64,000 nt of DNA from a virus (lineage: Duplodnaviria; Caudoviricetes), in the IMG/VR virus record IMGVR_UViG_3300028591_000079, positions 32,001 through 96,000 of that record. One strand, written 5' to 3'. Shown piece after piece: positions 6,468 through 61,490 of the stretch. The position numbers were made by a program, and so were the translations under genes. Positions within the stretch are counted from its first letter, which is position 1. Each line of letters opens with the position of its first letter. A model generated the notes under the pieces. It was not told where the DNA came from. It did no database searches and saw only the letters and a list, made by a program, of their open reading frames with translations.

Positions 6468-8078
6468 ATGAAAAAATATACTCTATTAGTTGAAGAAGAT
6501 ACAATACATGACAGTGATGTTGTATTGTTAGATGATAAAAAGATATTATGTATACTAGAAAATGAACGTGTAACAAAACATAAGCACGCAGTATATGAAA
6601 AATGTGATGCTATTATAGACTATGTATTGAAACGTTATAATATTGGCAAAGATGAAGTTAATATTGTCAAAGGAATAAATACACAACATAACAGCCATCA
6701 CGAATTACATGCTTTGGCCACATACCTTTCTTCTGGTTATGATAAAGCAAGTATTTTAGTTATAGATGGATATGGAGACCAAGATGATTCTGTGACTTTG
6801 TTTGCAGGGAGAGGTCAAAATATTTACGAATTAAAGAAGTATCACGTAATGTATTCTTTGGGTAATCTTTATAATTGTGCTTCTAGGTTACTCTATGATA
6901 ATGCTGGATATAGTGAAGGTAAGATGATGGGGTTGTCTTGTTGTTCTGAACCTGAATATAGTATACCAAGTCCAATACAATATCATGAAGATGGAACTGT
7001 AGAGTGTATTGCTAAAATAGATGAAAATTGTCCGATAGAAGAAAATATTATGAACTATATAAAGGAACAGTTTTCATATTTGATTGGTAATGATGGCAAT
7101 GTAATGGGTGTTGATATATATAAAGCTAAAATTGCTGCAACTGTTCAATGGTGGTTTACAGAGCAAGTTGTTAATCTGGTCAAATATATCAAAAAGCTAA
7201 ATCCTAACACTGAAAATCTTTGTGTTTGTGGTGGATGTTTTCTAAATTGCGAGACCAATGGAATTATAGACAGACTTGAATTATTCAAAAATATATATTG
7301 TATTCCAGCTCCTGCAGATAATTCAATAGTTTTAGGTAGAGCTCAACAATTTTTGGTAGAAATAGGATCAAAACCACAAACAATAAAAAGTCCATATTGG
7401 GGCCCTGACTCTGATAAAACTTTTGAAGATTTATTGGAAGAATTTAAAATAAAAGAAGTAGATGGTAAATTTAGATCACAAATAACAAATGCTCATGATA
7501 TAAGTAAGTATTCAGAAGATTGGGTTATTGAAAGACTAAAGGCAGATAGGGTTATTTTATGGTTTGATGGTGGTTCTGAATTTGGGCCTCGTGCATTAGG
7601 ACATAGATCGTTTTTAGCCAATCCTGCAACAAATGAAATGTTTTGGAGACTCAGTGTAAAAATCAAAAGTAGAGAAAACTATAGACCACTTGCGCCAATT
7701 ACAACAGATGAGCTATATCCAATGATTTTTGAAGATCCCAATCCAGAAAATCTTACACAATTTATGCTAAAAACAGTAAAAGTAAAAGATGAGTGGAGAT
7801 CTAAACTAAAAGCTGTTACACACATAAATCAAACAGCTCGTCCCCAACGTTTAACTGAAGATGTAAATCCAGTTCTATATTCATTAATAAGCAAATGGTA
7901 TAAAGAATCTGGACTGCCTTGTCTTATAAATACATCTCTAAATCTAAAAGGACAACCATTATTGGAAACATATGACGATTTAAAATCAATTCTTATAAAT
8001 CCTAACATTTTATTGAACAAGTGTAGTGTAGTAATTGATCATAAGTTGTGTTTTGATATTTACGAAGGAGCAGCATAA
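6468..8078 (+). CDS. carbamoyltransferase, NodU/CmcH/TobZ family
   Basis: ENER, SHHELHA, VIDGYGD, EGKMMGL, GGCFLNC, EFGPRALGHRS, RENYRPLAP, INTSLN. Confidence 0.95.
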   Translation: MKKYTLLVEEDTIHDSDVVLLDDKKILCILENERVTKHKHAVYEKCDAIIDYVLKRYNIGKDEVNIVKGINTQHNSHHELHALATYLSSGYDKASILVIDGYGDQDDSVTLFAGRGQNIYELKKYHVMYSLGNLYNCASRLLYDNAGYSEGKMMGLSCCSEPEYSIPSPIQYHEDGTVECIAKIDENCPIEENIMNYIKEQFSYLIGNDGNVMGVDIYKAKIAATVQWWFTEQVVNLVKYIKKLNPNTENLCVCGGCFLNCETNGIIDRLELFKNIYCIPAPADNSIVLGRAQQFLVEIGSKPQTIKSPYWGPDSDKTFEDLLEEFKIKEVDGKFRSQITNAHDISKYSEDWVIERLKADRVILWFDGGSEFGPRALGHRSFLANPATNEMFWRLSVKIKSRENYRPLAPITTDELYPMIFEDPNPENLTQFMLKTVKVKDEWRSKLKAVTHINQTARPQRLTEDVNPVLYSLISKWYKESGLPCLINTSLNLKGQPLLETYDDLKSILINPNILLNKCSVVIDHKLCFDIYEGAA

Positions 8079-10145
8079 ATGACATTTAAAGAGAAGATGG
8101 TAGAATTTTTACAGAACACAGATAAAGATAAAGTTCGTACAAATCTAAACGAAAACAGTATGAGCATATCTATTGGCTGCGACATAAACCATATAGAAGC
8201 TGAAAAAATTCGTACAATGATCAAAAATGCAAATGAGAACTATAAGGTTTGTATTATTCATACTTGTACTGCATATGGACAATTTATAGACTTGACGAAA
8301 GATGTAATCAATTTTGTATCTAAAAATCTTCCAAAGTCATATAGTTTATTTTTGGCTGGTTGTGGGGTAGATACATTTGCAGAAGAATTTCCAAAACTAA
8401 CAATAATATCTGGAAATGCAAAATTTGATGTAGAAAGTTATAATATTCCAAAAGTTGATGATGGCAAATCTGCAGATGCTCCAATGGGAATAATACAAAT
8501 TCAAACAGGATGCAATAATCAATGTTCATACTGCCAATTTCCAATGTTAAAAGGTCACAAATCAATATCTACACCTAAAAAAGAAATATTAGATCTGGTA
8601 AAATATAATATAAATAATGGAGTAAGAGACATAACATTGACAGGAGTAAACATCTGCCAGTATAAAGATCCAAATGATGAAACAGATCTAATTGGACTAC
8701 TAAAATATATAGTCAAAAATAGTATAGGGCTAAATAAACTTTCAATGTATTCGATAGATCCAGCTTATGAAGATATATTTAAATTGATTGATTATATAGA
8801 AGAAGAACCATTGATGAGTAAAGATTTGTATTTGGCAACTCAATCTGGTTCCGATAAGGTGTTGAAAAAAATGAATAGAAGACACAACACTTTTCGCATG
8901 AACTCTATAATAAACTATGTAAAAAATGTAAAACTAAGACATGATTTTATAATTGGGCACCCAGGCGAAGAAGATGAGGATTTTCAACAATCTTTACAAT
9001 TATTAAGAATGACTCAAGAAAACGAAATTGTTGGTGGTATAGCCGAGTTTTATGCGCACGAAGGAACAGCATCTTATTATATGGAAGACAAAGTAGATTC
9101 AAAAATAGCCCATGAAAGATATGAACTCATGACAAATACGCTAAATAAAATAACTAATCTAATAAAACAAGAAGTTAGATGTATTCAATTTGAACTTTGG
9201 CATAATTGTACTAATGAATGCAAATTTTGTTATTTAAATGGTTGTAGAAAGTGCTTTACCGAGGAACAAAAACAAAAATCAATACAAAAAGTTTTAGATA
9301 TATTAGAAACAGATAAAATAAATGGTTTCAATGCTGTTGGGCTTATAGGCGGGGAATTATTTATGGGGCAACAAGGAGATGAAAGAACACAAAACAAATT
9401 TCAAACACTGATACGCAAAATAAAAACATTCCTAGATAAAGATGAAATAAAGGAAGTCTGGTTAACATCCAATCTAATGACGGAAAACATTGGACCACTT
9501 ACGGAGACTTTAGATATATTGATGGAAAAATTGCCTAAATATCAAAGAATCATGTTGTGCACTTCTTATGATACAAAAGGAAGATTCCATACAGAGGCTG
9601 CTTATAAACAATGGTATGATAATTTATTGAGGCTTCGTGAAATTTATCCAAGACTCTGTATTCATATTCAATCTATTTGTACACAAGAATTAGTAAATGA
9701 GTGGTTGACTAACAAAGAAAAGTTTGTAGATTTTATAGATAGAGGCTTCTTAATTGATTTTAAACCACCTGCTACCAATGCTGTAGATTTTATATATAAC
9801 AACACAGGACATGATTCATACAGGGAAAATCTAGAAAAATTTGCAAAAACACAAGACTATAGATACTTAATTGATTCAAGAGAAAAGTTTATGAAATTCT
9901 GGGAGGTTGTATATAATACTTTTCCAGATGGGTTACAAAAACTAAAAGACTTTAATAGTAATCATGTTAAATCTGAGTGTTGTTATTCTGTCCCTTGGAA
10001 TGAATGGTTTGAAAATAGATGGGATAATAATATAGAAAACGCACCTTGTGGACACTGTTGGGATGGTTATTGTTATAAAGATCACCCGGATAGATGTGCC
10101 AAATGCGATGTAGAAAAACTAATAAAAATGTTGGAGAAAAAATAA
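8079..10145 (+). CDS. MiaB/RimO-like methylthiotransferase fused to second radical-SAM domain
   Basis: N-terminal GC..N/HTC/AGC cysteines, GCNNQCSYC, QSGSDKVLKKMNR, DFIIGHPGE; then CTNECKFC, GLIGGELF, TSYDTKGRFH, CGH tail. Confidence 0.88.
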   Translation: MTFKEKMVEFLQNTDKDKVRTNLNENSMSISIGCDINHIEAEKIRTMIKNANENYKVCIIHTCTAYGQFIDLTKDVINFVSKNLPKSYSLFLAGCGVDTFAEEFPKLTIISGNAKFDVESYNIPKVDDGKSADAPMGIIQIQTGCNNQCSYCQFPMLKGHKSISTPKKEILDLVKYNINNGVRDITLTGVNICQYKDPNDETDLIGLLKYIVKNSIGLNKLSMYSIDPAYEDIFKLIDYIEEEPLMSKDLYLATQSGSDKVLKKMNRRHNTFRMNSIINYVKNVKLRHDFIIGHPGEEDEDFQQSLQLLRMTQENEIVGGIAEFYAHEGTASYYMEDKVDSKIAHERYELMTNTLNKITNLIKQEVRCIQFELWHNCTNECKFCYLNGCRKCFTEEQKQKSIQKVLDILETDKINGFNAVGLIGGELFMGQQGDERTQNKFQTLIRKIKTFLDKDEIKEVWLTSNLMTENIGPLTETLDILMEKLPKYQRIMLCTSYDTKGRFHTEAAYKQWYDNLLRLREIYPRLCIHIQSICTQELVNEWLTNKEKFVDFIDRGFLIDFKPPATNAVDFIYNNTGHDSYRENLEKFAKTQDYRYLIDSREKFMKFWEVVYNTFPDGLQKLKDFNSNHVKSECCYSVPWNEWFENRWDNNIENAPCGHCWDGYCYKDHPDRCAKCDVEKLIKMLEKK

Positions 10146-58168: not shown

Positions 58169-58720
58169 ATGGATAATAAAATAAAACTTACATTGTTGTT
58201 GGTCTTTTGGGCTCTTATATTTTTTATTGTTGGTATTGGTGTTTCTGCTAGAGCTAATGCAAACAATATGGCTTTTCAATATGGTGTCTTGTATCCTCAA
58301 TATGTTAGAAATGCAAATTGTGAAATAGAAAAAATCTTAGTAGAAAAATCTCAAAAGAAAATGCACCTAATTGATTGTAATGGTAATGTAGTCAAGTCTT
58401 ATAATGTGGTAACTGGTAAAAACAAAGGCGCTAAACAATGTGATGGCGATAAAAAAACTCCAGAAGGCACTTACCATATTATAGAAAAACGTGACTCTAA
58501 ATATTATAAATTCTTGGCTTTAGATTATCCACAAGCTAAGGATATAAAAAAAGCAAAAGAATTAGGATGTAAGCCAGGAGACTCAATCGGTATTCATGGT
58601 TGGATTGAAGGACTTCCACTTGATGGTTCTCTTGGGTGTGTGCGGGTTATGACCAAAGAAGAAATATTAGAAATTGAAAAAATGGTAAAAGTAGGAACAG
58701 AAGTAGAGATAGTTAAATAA
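58169..58720 (+). CDS. L,D-transpeptidase (YkuD) family protein with N-terminal signal/TM
   Basis: GDKKTPEG, LDYP, IGIHG, SLGCVR catalytic His/Cys. Confidence 0.9.
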   Translation: MDNKIKLTLLLVFWALIFFIVGIGVSARANANNMAFQYGVLYPQYVRNANCEIEKILVEKSQKKMHLIDCNGNVVKSYNVVTGKNKGAKQCDGDKKTPEGTYHIIEKRDSKYYKFLALDYPQAKDIKKAKELGCKPGDSIGIHGWIEGLPLDGSLGCVRVMTKEEILEIEKMVKVGTEVEIVK

Positions 58721-58726
58721 TTTTTC

Positions 58727-58755
58727 TTGACTTTGTAGTTCTATTAGATTATCAT
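58727..58755 (+). promoter_or_regulatory. promoter of tRNA cluster
   Basis: TTGACT-17-TATCAT just upstream of first tRNA. Confidence 0.65.
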
Positions 58756-58762
58756 AATCATT

Positions 58763-58838
58763 GGGGTTGTAGCTCAGTTGGTAGAGCACCTGCTTTGCAA
58801 GCAGGGGGTCGTCAGTTCGAGTCTGATCAGCTCCACCA
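58763..58838 (+). tRNA. tRNA-Ala(UGC)
   Basis: Full cloverleaf, canonical TTCGA, encoded CCA. Confidence 0.95.
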
Positions 58839-58840
58839 GT

Positions 58841-58914
58841 GGTCCTGTCGTCTAAAGGAAGGACACCACCCTTTCAAGGTGAGAATGCGGTCTCGGGATC
58901 CGCCAGGACTACCA
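58841..58914 (+). tRNA. tRNA-Glu(UUC), atypical T-arm
   Basis: Acceptor GGTCCTG/CAGGACT, anticodon loop CTTTCAA, CCA. Confidence 0.85.
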
Positions 58915-58921
58915 TTTTTAT

Positions 58922-58997
58922 TCCCGCTTAGCTCAATGAGTAGAGCATCTGACTGTTAATCAGAAGGTTGTTGGGGCGGAGCCAACAGCGGGAGCCA
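58922..58997 (+). tRNA. tRNA-Asn(GUU), atypical T-loop
   Basis: Acceptor TCCCGCT/AGCGGGA, loop CTGTTAA, CCA. Confidence 0.9.
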
Positions 58998-58998
58998 C

Positions 58999-59074
58999 GC
59001 CTGTGTAGCACAATTGGTAGTGCATCCGATTTGTAATCGGAAGGTTGGCGGATCATGCCCGTCCACAGGCACCA
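58999..59074 (+). tRNA. tRNA-Thr(UGU), atypical T-loop
   Basis: Acceptor GCCTGTG/CACAGGC, loop TTTGTAA, CCA. Confidence 0.9.
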
Positions 59075-59082
59075 TTTTTATT

Positions 59083-59168
59083 GGGTCACTATTCCACTAA
59101 AGACGTGGGGCGGACTGTAAATCCGTTATCTTTCGATTGGCCTGGAGCGTTACCAGGGTGGCCCACCA
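59083..59168 (+). tRNA. tRNA-Tyr(GUA), long variable arm, atypical T-loop
   Basis: Acceptor GGGTCAC/GTGGCCC, loop CTGTAAA, CCA. Confidence 0.88.
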
Positions 59169-59176
59169 TCATATTT

Positions 59177-59202
59177 TACCACATTTATATGTGGTATTTT
59201 TT
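59177..59202 (+). terminator. intrinsic terminator after tRNA-Tyr
   Basis: TACCACAT-TTAT-ATGTGGTA then T-tract. Confidence 0.65.
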
Positions 59203-59268
59203 ATTAAATATTTCAAACATTAGTATGAAAAATAAGTTCTAATACTTATCCAGCAAAAGGTAAGTATT

Positions 59269-60159
59269 ATGTTTAATTGTAAATATTGTAATGAAAAATT
59301 TGAAAATGCCAAAAAAGTTGCAGCACATACAAAATGGTGCAAACAAAATCCAAATCGTGGGGTTGGGGTGTTGAAAATAAAACACAGATATTGTGCTATT
59401 TGTGGAAAAGAAATTTTTTGGAACAAAAAACACAGGAGTAAAGTGTGTGATAATGAAAATTGCAAAAAAGAAATAAGAAAACATACTGATGATTATAAAA
59501 AATCAATGTCTAAAAAAAGAAAAAAATGGCTAAAAGAACATCCAAATTTGCATCCATGGAAAAATAATAACAAATTTATATCAAAACCATGTGAACATTT
59601 AAAAAATATATTACAAAAAAACAATATTTTTTTTGAAAAAGAATTTTCGCCAATAGAAAACAGATTTTTTTCAATAGATATATTTATTCCATCTAAAAAT
59701 ATTGGATTAGAAGTGAACGGAAATCAACATTACACAAAAGATGGTAATTTAAAAAAATATTATCAAAACAGACATGATCTTATTGAAAAACATGGAATAA
59801 AATTAATAGAAATACATTATGCAATGGTTTATAATAATAATTTTATTGTTGATCTTTTGGGTTTTATAAATAATTTAAAAGAGATAAATATTGATCAATA
59901 TAAAAAAGATGTAAAATTATCTAAAAAACAAAAAATTATTGAACAAAAAAAATATAGAGAAAACAAAGCGAAGGAAAAAATACAAAAAAGAATTCAAAAA
60001 ATACAAAATATGAACATAAATTTTTCAAAATTTGGTTGGAACACCAAAGTGTCAAAAAATCTTCAAATTTCAAACACACAAGTAAGACGTTTTATGGAAA
60101 AATATATGCCAGAATTTTATTCAAAATGTTATAAAAGAAAAAGTTGTAAAAAAAATTAA
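59269..60159 (+). CDS. putative free-standing homing endonuclease (Vsr/DUF559-like PD-(D/E)xK with Zn fingers)
   Basis: CKYC..H...C, CAIC; FSIDIF..IGLEVNGNQHY; located inside tRNA cluster, very AT-rich. Confidence 0.7.
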   Translation: MFNCKYCNEKFENAKKVAAHTKWCKQNPNRGVGVLKIKHRYCAICGKEIFWNKKHRSKVCDNENCKKEIRKHTDDYKKSMSKKRKKWLKEHPNLHPWKNNNKFISKPCEHLKNILQKNNIFFEKEFSPIENRFFSIDIFIPSKNIGLEVNGNQHYTKDGNLKKYYQNRHDLIEKHGIKLIEIHYAMVYNNNFIVDLLGFINNLKEINIDQYKKDVKLSKKQKIIEQKKYRENKAKEKIQKRIQKIQNMNINFSKFGWNTKVSKNLQISNTQVRRFMEKYMPEFYSKCYKRKSCKKN

Positions 60160-60171
60160 ACATGCTATTAT
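60144..60171 (+). promoter_or_regulatory. phage promoter for second tRNA group
   Basis: TTGTAA-AAAAAATTAAACATGC-TATTAT. Confidence 0.6.
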
Positions 60172-60180
60172 ATAAATATA

Positions 60181-60255
60181 GCCCCTGTGGTGTAATAGAT
60201 AGCATTTATCTCTTCTAAAGATACGATCCTGGCGCACATCCAGGCAGGGGTGCCA
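60181..60255 (+). tRNA. tRNA-Arg(UCU), atypical T-loop
   Basis: Acceptor GCCCCTG/CAGGGGT, loop CTTCTAA, CCA. Confidence 0.88.
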
Positions 60256-60262
60256 GTTTTAT

Positions 60263-60347
60263 CCGTCTGTGGCGGAATTGGTAGACGCTCAGCACTAAGG
60301 ATGCTGTGGAGAAACCCGTGGGGGTTCAAGTCCCCCCAGACGGACCA
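60263..60347 (+). tRNA. tRNA-Leu(AAG)
   Basis: Leu-type D-arm GGCGGAATTGGTAGACGC, stem CAGCA/TGCTG, loop CTAAGGA, long variable arm, TTCAAGT, CCA. Confidence 0.88.
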
Positions 60348-60932: not shown

Positions 60933-61490
60933 ATGAAGAAATTTACTGTTATTATGAATTGTATTAGTTTATTATTGATAGGTTTTATTTCCGTTATGCT
61001 TTTGACATGGAGTGTAAGTGCTGAAACAATAAGGGGCAAAGCAAGAGTTATAGATGGGGATACGATAGAAATAAACGGAGAAAAGATTAGATTATTGTGT
61101 GTTGATACTCCGGAAAGCAATTATCGTGGAAAGACTCAGTATTGCTTAGATAATGAGACTGATTGTGGTGATTTAGCTAAAAAAGCATTAAAACGTTTAA
61201 TTGGCAATGAACATGAAGTATGGTGTGAATATGAAAAACATGATATGTATGGTAGAATATTAGGTATGTGTCAAGAGTATTCATATTGGAATACATATCC
61301 ATATTGGGGTACCTATAATTATGAAATGATTTATTATGGATATGCTTGGTTTTATCCTGGTGGCAAAGAATGTGAAGAATTTAAACAAGCTTTTGAAAGT
61401 GCTAAAGAAAAAGGTCGTGGTTTATTTAATGAAGAATTAGGTGGATTTAAAGAACCAAAATTATGGAGGAAAAAGAGAAGCAATGACTAA
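60933..61490 (+). CDS. thermonuclease (SNase-like) with N-terminal signal/TM
   Basis: VIDGDTI, IRLLCVDTPE, DMYGRILG, GYAW. Confidence 0.92.
   Translation: MKKFTVIMNCISLLLIGFISVMLLTWSVSAETIRGKARVIDGDTIEINGEKIRLLCVDTPESNYRGKTQYCLDNETDCGDLAKKALKRLIGNEHEVWCEYEKHDMYGRILGMCQEYSYWNTYPYWGTYNYEMIYYGYAWFYPGGKECEEFKQAFESAKEKGRGLFNEELGGFKEPKLWRKKRSND

What the first reader, a model, noticed from the sequence alone, without database searches (positions are those of the whole stretch)
58841..60255. Five of seven tRNAs have rewritten T-loops that lose the T54-psi55 (TTC) signature but keep C56
Seen: T-loops are CTCGGGA (Glu), GGCGGAG (Asn), ATCATGC (Thr), AGCGTTA (Tyr) and CGCACAT (Arg) instead of TTCRANY. 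Acceptor and anticodon stems and CCA are intact, and C56 plus purine 57 are kept in all five, which argues against random decay. Known: phage tRNA variants can escape host anticodon nucleases. Inference: systematic escape from a factor recognising the T-arm (host defence RNase, or a phage nuclease that destroys host tRNAs), or independence from TrmA/TruB modification.
Basis: partly seen in the sequence, partly recalled or inferred. Interest (0 to 1): 0.7.

Follow-up and report, generated by a model that had tools for sequence, protein, structure and literature searches.

The report
Phage tRNAs with rewired elbows
A 231-kb phage from animal-gut metagenomes carries tRNA genes whose normally invariant T-loop has been rewritten together with matching D-loop changes, so they look like working tRNAs that no longer show the U54-U55 site read by tRNA-modifying enzymes and by a recently described anti-phage nuclease.

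Summary
Seven tRNA genes lie at 58763-60347, and five of them (Glu, Asn, Thr, Tyr, Arg) lack T54. Asn, Tyr and Arg also lack U55. All five keep C56 and a purine at 57. A sixth odd tRNA, Trp with G55, lies elsewhere in the genome.

They are not decaying genes. In 66 distinct tRNAs from this phage and its relatives (T4-like, about 200-245 kb, from pig gut and rumen), G55 always comes with A18-G19 in the D-loop. U56 always comes with G18-A19. U55-C56 always comes with G18-G19 (Fisher p = 5e-13).

The odd Glu tRNA is identical from position 8 to 65 in a distant relative, while its acceptor stem carries two compensatory pair changes. At one syntenic Arg(TCT) locus, close relatives show all three elbow states.

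The cognate codons are the phage's preferred ones. The likely host group (Candidatus Enterousia) and a T5-like phage have canonical loops.

Why the loops changed is inferred. A published type III CRISPR Schlafen nuclease cuts tRNA T-loops and is blocked by single U54 or U55 changes, so escape is plausible but untested. Compensated neutral drift remains a serious rival.

Earlier notes of this scan report the A18/G55 swap in other phages. I found no paper describing it.

The parts
58711..59214 (+). Roughly 500-bp cassette (promoter-like site, five tRNAs, terminator) present here but absent from relatives at the same site
   Evidence: Alignment to relative L243 is homologous up to 58710 and resumes at about 59215. 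In L243-L247 the YkuD gene and the 296-aa ORF are only 65 nt apart, with no tRNA between them. The gene map of a 93%-identical relative shows a 66-nt gap.
58727..58755 (+). Sigma-70-like promoter, TTGACT-17-TATCAT, ending 7 nt before tRNA-Ala
   Evidence: Consensus scan, 10 of 12 matches. The number of such sites in the region is no higher than in shuffles, so only its position is suggestive.
58763..58838 (+). tRNA-Ala(UGC), canonical elbow (G18G19; T-loop TTCGAGT)
   Evidence: ARAGORN; Rfam 69.9 bits; 97% identical to a Candidatus Enterousia tRNA-Ala.
58841..58914 (+). tRNA-Glu(UUC): C54, U55, C56, G58; U53.U61 mismatch; G18G19 kept
   Evidence: Rfam 39.7 bits; ARAGORN only at relaxed threshold. 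Positions 8-65 are identical in relative L083:14753-14826, while acceptor pairs 2:71 and 6:67 changed on both sides.
58922..58997 (+). tRNA-Asn(GUU): G54, G55, C56, G58; D-loop has A18-G19 in place of G18-G19
   Evidence: Rfam 56.4 bits. Infernal itself aligns AG to the model's GG. It has the same T-stem as the canonical Asn of L083; only the two loops differ.
58999..59074 (+). tRNA-Thr(UGU): A54, U55, C56, U58 (the 54/58 pair is swapped); G18G19 kept
   Evidence: Rfam 65.3 bits. The T-stem is identical to the canonical Thr of G001 and L083; the loop differs at 54, 58 and 60. The minimum-energy fold is a cloverleaf, z = -3.1.
59083..59168 (+). tRNA-Tyr(GUA), class II with long variable arm: A54, G55, C56, U58; D-loop has AG and no GG
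   Evidence: ARAGORN only at relaxed threshold; no Rfam hit. The minimum-energy fold is a cloverleaf with a variable arm.
59177..59206 (+). Intrinsic-terminator-like hairpin (8 pairs) followed by a T run, 9 nt after tRNA-Tyr
   Evidence: Consensus scan.
59269..60159 (+). 296-aa endonuclease-like ORF between the two tRNA groups (probably a homing-type endonuclease)
   Evidence: No Pfam hit. Weak match to PHROG 559, HNH endonuclease. Homologues carry Vsr/DUF559-type domains or are named very-short-patch-repair endonuclease. Orthologues at 75-84% identity sit at the same site in relatives.
60144..60171 (+). Promoter-like site with TG-extended -10, 10 nt before tRNA-Arg
   Evidence: Consensus scan, 9 of 12 matches; weak.
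60181..60255 (+). tRNA-Arg(UCU): C54, G55, C56, C58; D-loop reads A18-G19-A20 when aligned to orthologues
   Evidence: Rfam 47.3 bits. Syntenic orthologues are canonical in L243 and have the G18-A19/U56 form in L246. 15 of 20 stem pairs in the Arg family show compensatory changes. MAFFT and Infernal place the D-loop one base differently, so the A18 call for this gene depends on the alignment.
60263..60347 (+). tRNA-Leu(AAG), canonical elbow, unusual A34
   Evidence: ARAGORN; Rfam 52.7 bits.

Best explanation
The five genes, plus tRNA-Trp elsewhere in the genome, are working elongator tRNAs built on an altered elbow.

The corner of the L-shape is normally locked by three contacts: G18 with psi55, G19 with C56, and T54 with A58. 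Here U55 has become G55 only where G18 has become A18. G19:C56, the outer stacking platform, is kept. The 54/58 pair is swapped or replaced. The fold is therefore preserved while the universal T-psi-C sequence is erased.

Two consequences follow from known enzymology. These tRNAs cannot receive m5U54, and three of the five cannot receive psi55. They also lack the U54-U55 dinucleotide that T-loop-cutting nucleases need.

I think the most likely reason for the rewriting is selection to hide phage tRNAs for its most-used codons from a host enzyme that reads the T-psi-C loop, most plausibly a Schlafen-type defence nuclease.

Shown by comparison: the genes are tRNAs under purifying selection with a compensated elbow (my odds about 0.85). 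Inferred: the selective agent (about 0.5 given function). The confidence of 0.45 is for the whole statement.
For: 1. Covariation. In 66 distinct tRNAs of the clade:
- 49 have U55-C56 with GG in the D-loop.
- 9 have G55-C56, all with AG where orthologues have GG. In one of these an unrelated GG sits at 15-16.
- 7 have U55-U56, all with GA.
- No G18/G55 or A18/U55 intermediate was seen.
Fisher p = 5e-13 on the crude test 'GG anywhere in the D-loop'.

2. Recurrence. The swaps occur in at least 9 (A18/G55) and at least 4 (A19/U56) different isoacceptor families. They arise inside otherwise homologous genes. Asn and Thr keep their T-stems. The Phe of L087 is a clear homologue of canonical Phe.

3. 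Purifying selection. The Glu body, including its odd loop, is 100% conserved between this phage and L083, whose anchor protein is only 64% identical. The acceptor stems differ by two compensatory double changes.

4. One syntenic Arg(UCU) locus shows the canonical, A19/U56 and A18/G55 states in close relatives. The stems covary.

5. The changes run against mutational bias. They are T-to-G/C and A-to-G in a genome of 32% G+C.

6. The anticodons match the dominant codons: GAA 61, AAT+AAC 70, ACA 36, TAT+TAC 49 and AGA 20.5 per thousand.

7. A promoter-like site and a terminator bracket the five-gene cassette.

8. Precedent for the agent. CbCash cuts 5' of U55, and single U54 or U55 mutations abolish cleavage. 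Its authors call the fate of phage tRNAs an open question (PMC13462974). CdiA-CT E479 also cuts the T-loop.

9. Schlafen-domain ORFs occur in 3 of 81 species of the likely host genus.

10. A relative carries T4-type Pnkp and Rnl1 tRNA-repair genes, which suggests tRNA-cutting defences act on this clade. This phage has none.
Against: - There are no expression, processing or charging data.
- Three of the five genes fall below ARAGORN's default threshold, and Tyr is missed by Rfam.
- Glu has two stem mismatches.
- G54/G58 and C54/C58 are not obvious isosteres of the reverse-Hoogsteen U54-A58 pair.
- The five-gene cassette is absent from the closest relatives, so it is dispensable.
- Only six amino acids are covered, which could not rescue translation if a nuclease removed every host tRNA.
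- The A19/U56 form keeps U54-U55, is AT-directed, and also occurs in a low-GC Clostridia genome. At least that rewiring needs no immune explanation.
- No T-loop nuclease has been shown in the host. The host itself is inferred only from tRNA similarity.
Confidence: 0.45

Rival explanations
1. Compensated neutral drift. The genes are working tRNAs, but the elbow changes have no adaptive value. Phage tRNAs act for minutes in a cell that also has host tRNAs, so constraint on the T-loop is relaxed. Slightly harmful single changes are then fixed together with compensating ones.
For: The rewired set differs from phage to phage, and the cassette is dispensable. The A19/U56 form follows AT pressure and occurs in a 27%-GC Clostridia genome. 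trmA and truB mutants of E. coli are viable (established knowledge), so losing the two modifications costs little.
Against: The U55-to-G and T54-to-G/C changes go against the AT bias of the genome. No single-change intermediates appear among 66 tRNAs, yet the double change arose in at least 9 families, which is many valley crossings for drift. The odd Glu loop is perfectly conserved across distant phages. Host-like phage tRNAs (Ala, Phe) in the same genomes stay canonical.
Confidence: 0.3
2. Decaying pseudogenes: former tRNA genes that are no longer used.
For: Lower Rfam scores (39.7-56.4 bits for Glu, Arg and Asn). ARAGORN at default misses three, and Tyr has no Rfam hit.
Against: All stems are intact or nearly so. 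U8, A14, U33, a purine at 37 and the 3' CCA are kept. Loop changes are matched between the D- and T-loops. Glu is conserved with compensatory stem changes. In the Arg family 15 of 20 pairs covary. G+C of 51-57% is maintained in a 32%-GC genome.
Confidence: 0.05
3. Self-immunity. The phage makes its own T-loop nuclease to destroy host tRNAs, and its rewired tRNAs are the resistant replacements.
For: A staphylococcal-nuclease-like gene lies just downstream at 60933-61490.
Against: The phage has only 11 tRNA genes for 11 amino acids, and five of them are canonical. It must therefore rely on host tRNAs. No Schlafen domain was found in the genome. The SNase-family gene is also present in relatives whose neighbouring tRNAs are canonical.
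Confidence: 0.05
4. Non-translational tRNA-like RNAs, for example decoys that soak up a tRNA-binding defence protein.
For: None directly. The altered elbow would change recognition by elbow-binding partners.
Against: Anticodon loops, discriminator bases and known identity features are those of real acceptors: G73 in Asn, A73 and a long arm in Tyr, A20 in Arg under the orthologue-guided alignment. The anticodons match the phage's commonest codons.
Confidence: 0.05

Closest known systems
Canonical bacterial and phage elongator tRNAs (Rfam RF00005)
   Same: Cloverleaf, 7-bp acceptor stem, U8, A14, U33, purine 37, C56, G19, encoded CCA. Arranged in arrays interrupted by endonuclease genes, as in T4- and T5-like phages.
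   Different: T54 is lost in all five and U55 in three. G18 is replaced by A18 where U55 is G55. The 54/58 pair is swapped or replaced. A T5-like array sampled here had 27 of 28 canonical loops.
Phage tRNAs that escape anticodon nucleases through anticodon-loop changes (PMC10264068; PMC11555353)
   Same: Phage-encoded copies of tRNAs that differ from host tRNAs at the site a defence nuclease reads. This is the same proposed logic of target-site escape.
   Different: There the changes lie in the anticodon loop, and resistance was argued or shown for specific nucleases. Here the anticodon loops are ordinary, the change is in the elbow, and it needs a compensating D-loop change. PMC10264068 does not mention the T- or D-loop.
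T-loop-directed tRNases: CbCash, a type III CRISPR Schlafen (PMC13462974), and CdiA-CT E479 (PMC9086364)
   Same: They read exactly the U54-U55(-C56) element that these tRNAs have lost. Single U54 or U55 substitutions block CbCash.
   Different: These are candidate adversaries, not relatives of the finding. None has been shown in this phage's host. Schlafen-domain ORFs occur in only 3 of 81 species of the likely host genus.
Animal mitochondrial tRNAs with degenerate D- and T-loops (reviewed in PMC4394434)
   Same: Loss of the G18G19 and T-psi-C signatures in tRNAs that still work.
   Different: Mitochondrial tRNAs lose the loop-loop contacts, shrink and become AT-rich. Here loop sizes and G19:C56 are kept, the changes are G/C-directed, and the two loops covary one-for-one.
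A18/G55 'rewired elbow' tRNA arrays noted earlier in this scan (e1-5405076, e1-5382721, e1-5392626, e1-4977530)
   Same: The same A18 with G55 swap, C56 retained, in large-phage tRNA sets.
   Different: Those are AI notes on soil and freshwater phages and on a Verrucomicrobia island. Here the phage is a gut/rumen T4-like phage with only a partial set. Two of the five rewritten tRNAs change only 54/58. Relatives show a second rewiring (A19/U56) and a three-state orthologous locus.

Membership tests
tRNA (Rfam RF00005) | Score at or above the curated gathering threshold (29 bits) | tested here: met
   Glu 39.7, Asn 56.4, Thr 65.3, Arg 47.3. Tyr is not hit, but the canonical class-II Tyr of relative L083 is not hit by RF00005 either.
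tRNA (Rfam RF00005) | Cloverleaf with four stems supported by compensatory changes | tested here: met
   Structures. The Arg family has 15 of 20 pairs with both-sided changes. The Glu acceptor stem has two compensatory changes against L083.
tRNA (Rfam RF00005) | Universal T54-psi55-C56 and G18-G19 elbow nucleotides | tested here: not met
   T54 is absent in all five, U55 in three, and G18 in the same three. This is the finding itself. The departures covary, so the contact is probably kept in another form.
tRNA (Rfam RF00005) | Expressed, 5'/3' processed and aminoacylated | not testable with these tools
Only a promoter-like site and a terminator-like hairpin flank the cassette.
A18:G55 compensated-elbow tRNAs (no published name found) | G55 together with A18, with G19:C56 retained | tested here: met
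   Met for Asn, Tyr and Arg in the window, and for Trp at genome 218128-218201. Arg depends on the orthologue-guided D-loop alignment. Not met for Glu and Thr, which keep G18/U55 and change only 54/58.
Phage tRNAs escaping anticodon nucleases (PMC10264068) | Anticodon-loop substitutions relative to host tRNAs at nuclease recognition positions | tested here: not met
   Anticodon loops are standard, with pyrimidine 32, U33 and A37-A38. The differences lie in the T- and D-loops.
tRNA pseudogene | Uncompensated stem disruptions and no conservation | tested here: not met
   0-2 unpaired stem positions per gene. The Glu body is identical in a distant relative.

The most novel reading that the evidence does not exclude
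The tRNA elbow has at least two alternative, fully compensated designs: A18:G55, and A19:U56 with free choice at 54/58. Phages reach them repeatedly and convergently because they make tRNAs invisible to immune nucleases that read the universal T-psi-C loop, such as Schlafen/Cash-type enzymes. This would be an elbow counterpart of the known anticodon-loop escape. It would also answer the question left open in PMC13462974 of whether phage tRNAs are targeted.
Probability: 0.35. Interest if true: 0.85.

Novelty: new variant of a known kind. Interest (0 to 1): 0.66.

Why it matters
T54, psi55, C56, G18 and G19 are among the most conserved nucleotides in biology. Gene finders, modification enzymes and at least two classes of toxin or defence nuclease rely on them.

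A natural family of tRNAs that replaces them in a matched way has three uses:
- It shows which elbow contacts are structurally necessary and which are merely frozen.
- It explains why standard tools under-call phage tRNAs. ARAGORN at default missed 3 of 7 here.
- It gives ready-made substrates to test whether T-loop-cutting immune nucleases are countered by phages.

The three-state Arg locus and the canonical/rewired Asn and Thr pairs are natural matched controls for such tests.

Tried and rejected
- Minimum-energy folding of single sequences was uninformative. Even canonical Ala and Leu do not give a cloverleaf. Thr and Tyr do, Glu and Arg do not.
- Exact or loop-open pattern scans of IMG/VR found nothing beyond one related phage and a fragment of it. 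The patterns were the Ala and Phe bodies, the Glu body, and Asn and Tyr with a free T-loop.
- The odd Glu T-arm is not in 185,579 species genomes.
- Tail-sheath relatives in IMG/VR were fragments without tRNAs.
- The 93%-identical relative could not be read because its files were too large.
- ENA and Logan contigs cannot be searched whole. Only +/-10 kb around two anchor genes was seen, so the full tRNA sets of most relatives are unknown.
- Searches of the phage for Terminase_6N, Rnl1, Rnl2-type ligase, RtcB and Schlafen domains found nothing.
- A literature search for A18 with G55 in tRNA found nothing relevant.
- A region of Sinorhizobium phage Phosso held too few tRNAs to serve as a baseline.
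- Rejected: the host uses the same odd loops. 18 of 18 sampled Enterousia tRNAs are canonical.
- Rejected: the odd Arg is unrelated to the canonical Arg of relatives. It sits at the same syntenic site with a near-identical acceptor stem.
Full report
WHAT IS THERE

The window is part of a 231,064-bp virus record with 32% G+C and an estimated completeness of 96%. A tail sheath, baseplate wedge and tape measure mark it as a myovirus. Relatives carry a T4 Gp23-type capsid gene.

Between a YkuD-type L,D-transpeptidase gene (58169-58720) and a block of unnamed and SNase-like genes lie seven tRNA genes, all on the + strand:
- Ala 58763-58838
- Glu 58841-58914
- Asn 58922-58997
- Thr 58999-59074
- Tyr 59083-59168
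- a 296-aa endonuclease-like ORF, 59269-60159
- Arg 60181-60255
- Leu 60263-60347

Default ARAGORN reports only Ala, Asn, Thr and Leu. A relaxed threshold adds Glu, Tyr and Arg. Rfam's tRNA model scores six of the seven above its 29-bit threshold, from Glu at 39.7 to Ala at 69.9, and misses Tyr. It also misses the canonical class-II Tyr of a relative.

A second cluster at genome 217892-218201 holds His, Pro and Phe, all canonical, and Trp with G55.

All lack T54, all keep C56 and a purine at 57, and all genes end in CCA. Two refinements are needed. Glu and Thr keep U55. Glu has U53.U61 in place of the usual G53-C61 pair.

Six of the genome's eleven tRNAs are non-canonical. That compares with 0 of 18 sampled from the likely host group and 1 of 28 in a T5-like phage array. 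Fisher p is about 0.001 in each comparison.

RELATIVES

The YkuD protein and a 130-aa protein next to the second cluster each have well over 90 homologues. They come from contigs of up to 245 kb whose record names point to pig gut and ruminant samples.

I read tRNA arrays from these sources:
- G001, a 231,566-bp IMG/VR phage with 17 tRNAs
- L080, L083 (about 20 tRNAs), L085, L087
- L063, L067, L073, L243 and L246

This gave 66 distinct tRNA sequences, of which 20 have a T-loop that does not begin TTC.

THE KEY RESULT: THE D-LOOP AND T-LOOP CHANGE TOGETHER

Every tRNA with G55-C56 has AG at the place where its canonical orthologues have G18-G19. These are Asn, Tyr, Arg and Trp here, Asp and Gly in G001, Cys in L080, Gln in L083 and Phe in L087.

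Every tRNA with U55-U56 has GA there. These are Cys and Trp in G001, Trp in L080 and L087, two Ser in L083 and Arg in L246.

All 49 tRNAs with U55-C56 have GG.

Even the crude test, GG anywhere in the D-loop against positions 55-56 not being UC, gives 15/2/0/49 and p = 5e-13.

The sequences are related, so that p-value overstates independence. But the swaps lie in at least nine and at least four different isoacceptor families. They also lie inside genes that are otherwise clear homologues of canonical ones, so they arose many times.

No half-changed intermediate (G18 with G55, or A18 with U55) was seen. G19:C56 to A19:U56 is an ordinary Watson-Crick compensation. G18.U55 to A18.G55 is a matched change of a tertiary contact.

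In T-loop motifs outside tRNA, position 2 is often G. That is my recollection of the T-loop motif literature and was not checked here.

For Arg in the window the A18 call depends on the alignment. Orthologues read GGA-U-A and this gene reads AGA-U-A, which also keeps A20. MAFFT and Infernal shift it by one base.

EVIDENCE FOR PURIFYING SELECTION

- The odd Glu tRNA is identical from position 8 to 65 in L083, including its D-loop, its C54/G58 loop and the U53.U61 mismatch. The acceptor stems differ by two compensatory double changes, at 2:71 and 6:67. L083's anchor protein is only 64% identical.
- Asn here and in L083 share the T-stem and anticodon arm and differ in the two loops. Thr here, in G001 and in L083 share the T-stem. 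The loop differs at 54 and 58 (U-A to A-U) and at 60.
- At the syntenic site after the 296-aa ORF, Arg(UCU) is canonical in L243-L245, G18-A19/U56 in L246-L247, and A18-G19/G55 here. The acceptor stems are near-identical.
- Across seven Arg genes, 15 of 20 stem pairs show both-sided changes.
- Stem mismatches are few: 0-2 per rewired gene.
- The T-loop substitutions are mostly toward G or C in a 32%-GC genome.

CONTEXT

The block from about 58711 to 59214 is absent from every relative read at this site. There YkuD and the endonuclease ORF are 65 nt apart. The block comprises a promoter-like TTGACT-17-TATCAT, the five tRNAs and a hairpin with a T run. It is therefore a self-contained, recently gained cassette.

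The anticodons of the rewired tRNAs read the phage's dominant codons. GAA is 61 per thousand, ACA 36 and AGA 20.5, and Asn and Tyr codons total 70 and 49 per thousand.

HOST LEAD

A 42-nt core of the phage tRNA-Phe occurs exactly in many gut MAGs labelled Candidatus Enterousia or Alphaproteobacteria, and in some labelled Clostridia.

The phage's canonical tRNAs match an Enterousia genome far better than a Clostridia one. Ala is 97-100% identical, Phe 95-97%, and Val, Thr, Tyr, His and Pro 84-87%. The rewired ones have no close host counterpart, at most 76%.

All 18 sampled Enterousia tRNAs are canonical. That genus has TruB in 5 of 5 genomes tested. TrmFO matches were all below the curated cut-off. 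A Schlafen-domain ORF occurs in 3 of 81 species.

The host assignment is an inference from tRNA similarity only.

WHY REWRITE THE LOOP

Published work gives a concrete candidate. CbCash is a Schlafen nuclease switched on by type III CRISPR signalling. It cuts tRNAs in the T-loop 5' of U55 at the UUC motif. Single U54 or U55 substitutions abolish cleavage. The authors state that whether phage tRNAs are targeted is open (PMC13462974).

CdiA-CT E479 also cuts between T and psi (PMC9086364). Bacterial Schlafens are widespread defence effectors (PMC13056530). Escape of phage tRNAs by anticodon-loop change is established as a concept (PMC10264068, PMC11555353). That literature does not discuss the T- or D-loop.

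All five rewritten tRNAs lack U54, and three also lack U55.

One relative (L071) carries T4-type Pnkp and Rnl1 repair genes. This phage has no detectable RNA ligase or Pnkp. That fits, but does not show, two alternative answers to tRNA-cutting defences.

Against the escape reading:
- Six resistant tRNAs cannot sustain translation if all host tRNAs are cut.
- The A19/U56 form keeps U54-U55, follows AT pressure, and also occurs in a bacterial tRNA-Gly.
- No such nuclease is shown in the host.

Compensated neutral drift is therefore a serious rival. Pseudogenes, a phage-made nuclease and decoy RNAs are unlikely, for the reasons given under the rival explanations.

RELATION TO WHAT IS KNOWN

These are tRNAs by every structural test except the universal elbow nucleotides. 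They are not members of the anticodon-loop-escape class. I found no paper describing A18 with G55 in tRNA.

Earlier notes of this scan report the same A18/G55 swap in other large phages and in a Verrucomicrobia island. I treated those as leads and established the covariation here independently.

New in this case:
- a partial set in a gut/rumen T4-like phage
- rewriting of 54/58 alone in Glu and Thr
- a second compensated state (A19/U56) in relatives
- a single orthologous locus showing all three states

I class it as a new variant of a known kind.

Noticed in passing
window 60263-60347; L043:7644-7733; L083:16445-16536: tRNA-Leu here has anticodon AAG. Relatives carry tRNA-Ser with anticodon ACU. 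A34 is unusual in bacterial-type tRNAs other than Arg(ACG). Both would read T-ending codons favoured by these AT-rich phages (CTT is 11.3 per thousand).
   Followed up: no
L083:13884-14036 and L043:5482-5634: Both relatives have a roughly 150-nt sub-threshold match to the alphaproteobacterial two-piece tmRNA model (36-37 bits against a cut-off of 50, E about 5e-8), just upstream of tRNA-Asp inside the tRNA array. It may be a phage-borne tmRNA piece or tRNA-like element. It fits an alphaproteobacterial host.
   Followed up: no
L071:3469-6722: A 233-kb pig-gut relative encodes a kinase-phosphatase (KTI12/AAA_33 + Metallophos, 494 aa) and a T4 Rnl1-type RNA ligase, separated by a LAGLIDADG-like ORF. 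This is a T4-style tRNA repair pair. This phage has no homologue.
   Followed up: partly
genome-wide; loci L090-L169, G009: Likely host group: Candidatus Enterousia and related gut Alphaproteobacteria, with genomes of only about 0.6-1.1 Mb. If right, this is a 231-kb phage on a host about four times its size.
   Followed up: partly
G010 (Clostridia MAG), tRNA-Gly(GCC): A bacterial chromosomal tRNA carries the G18-A19 / U55-U56 form, so this compensated elbow state is not confined to phages.
   Followed up: no
L043:8465-8542: A tRNA-like sequence with a canonical T-arm and CCA but a poor acceptor stem and an 8-nt anticodon loop (four-base anticodon call). It has no Rfam hit at E of 0.1 or lower. 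It may be a false positive, a degenerate gene or a frameshift-type tRNA.
   Followed up: no
L088:960-2478 and 7797-9056; L071:18940-20136: Relatives encode radical-SAM proteins next to weak TYW3-like and MiaB N-terminal (UPF0004) domains. These may be phage tRNA-modification enzymes.
   Followed up: no
L072:2417-3541: A 243-kb relative has a reverse transcriptase gene (RVT_1) beside an Lcl_C-like ORF, which may be a diversity-generating retroelement.
   Followed up: no
L249:14114-14187 (Providencia phage PSTCR5): The only non-canonical T-loop in this T5-like array is tRNA-Cys, with U54-U55-A56 and a D-loop lacking GG.
   Followed up: no
window 59269-60159: The 296-aa ORF between the tRNA groups has Cys-rich N-terminal motifs. 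Its homologues carry Vsr/DUF559-type endonuclease domains. It is conserved at this site in relatives, whether or not the five-tRNA cassette is present.
   Followed up: partly
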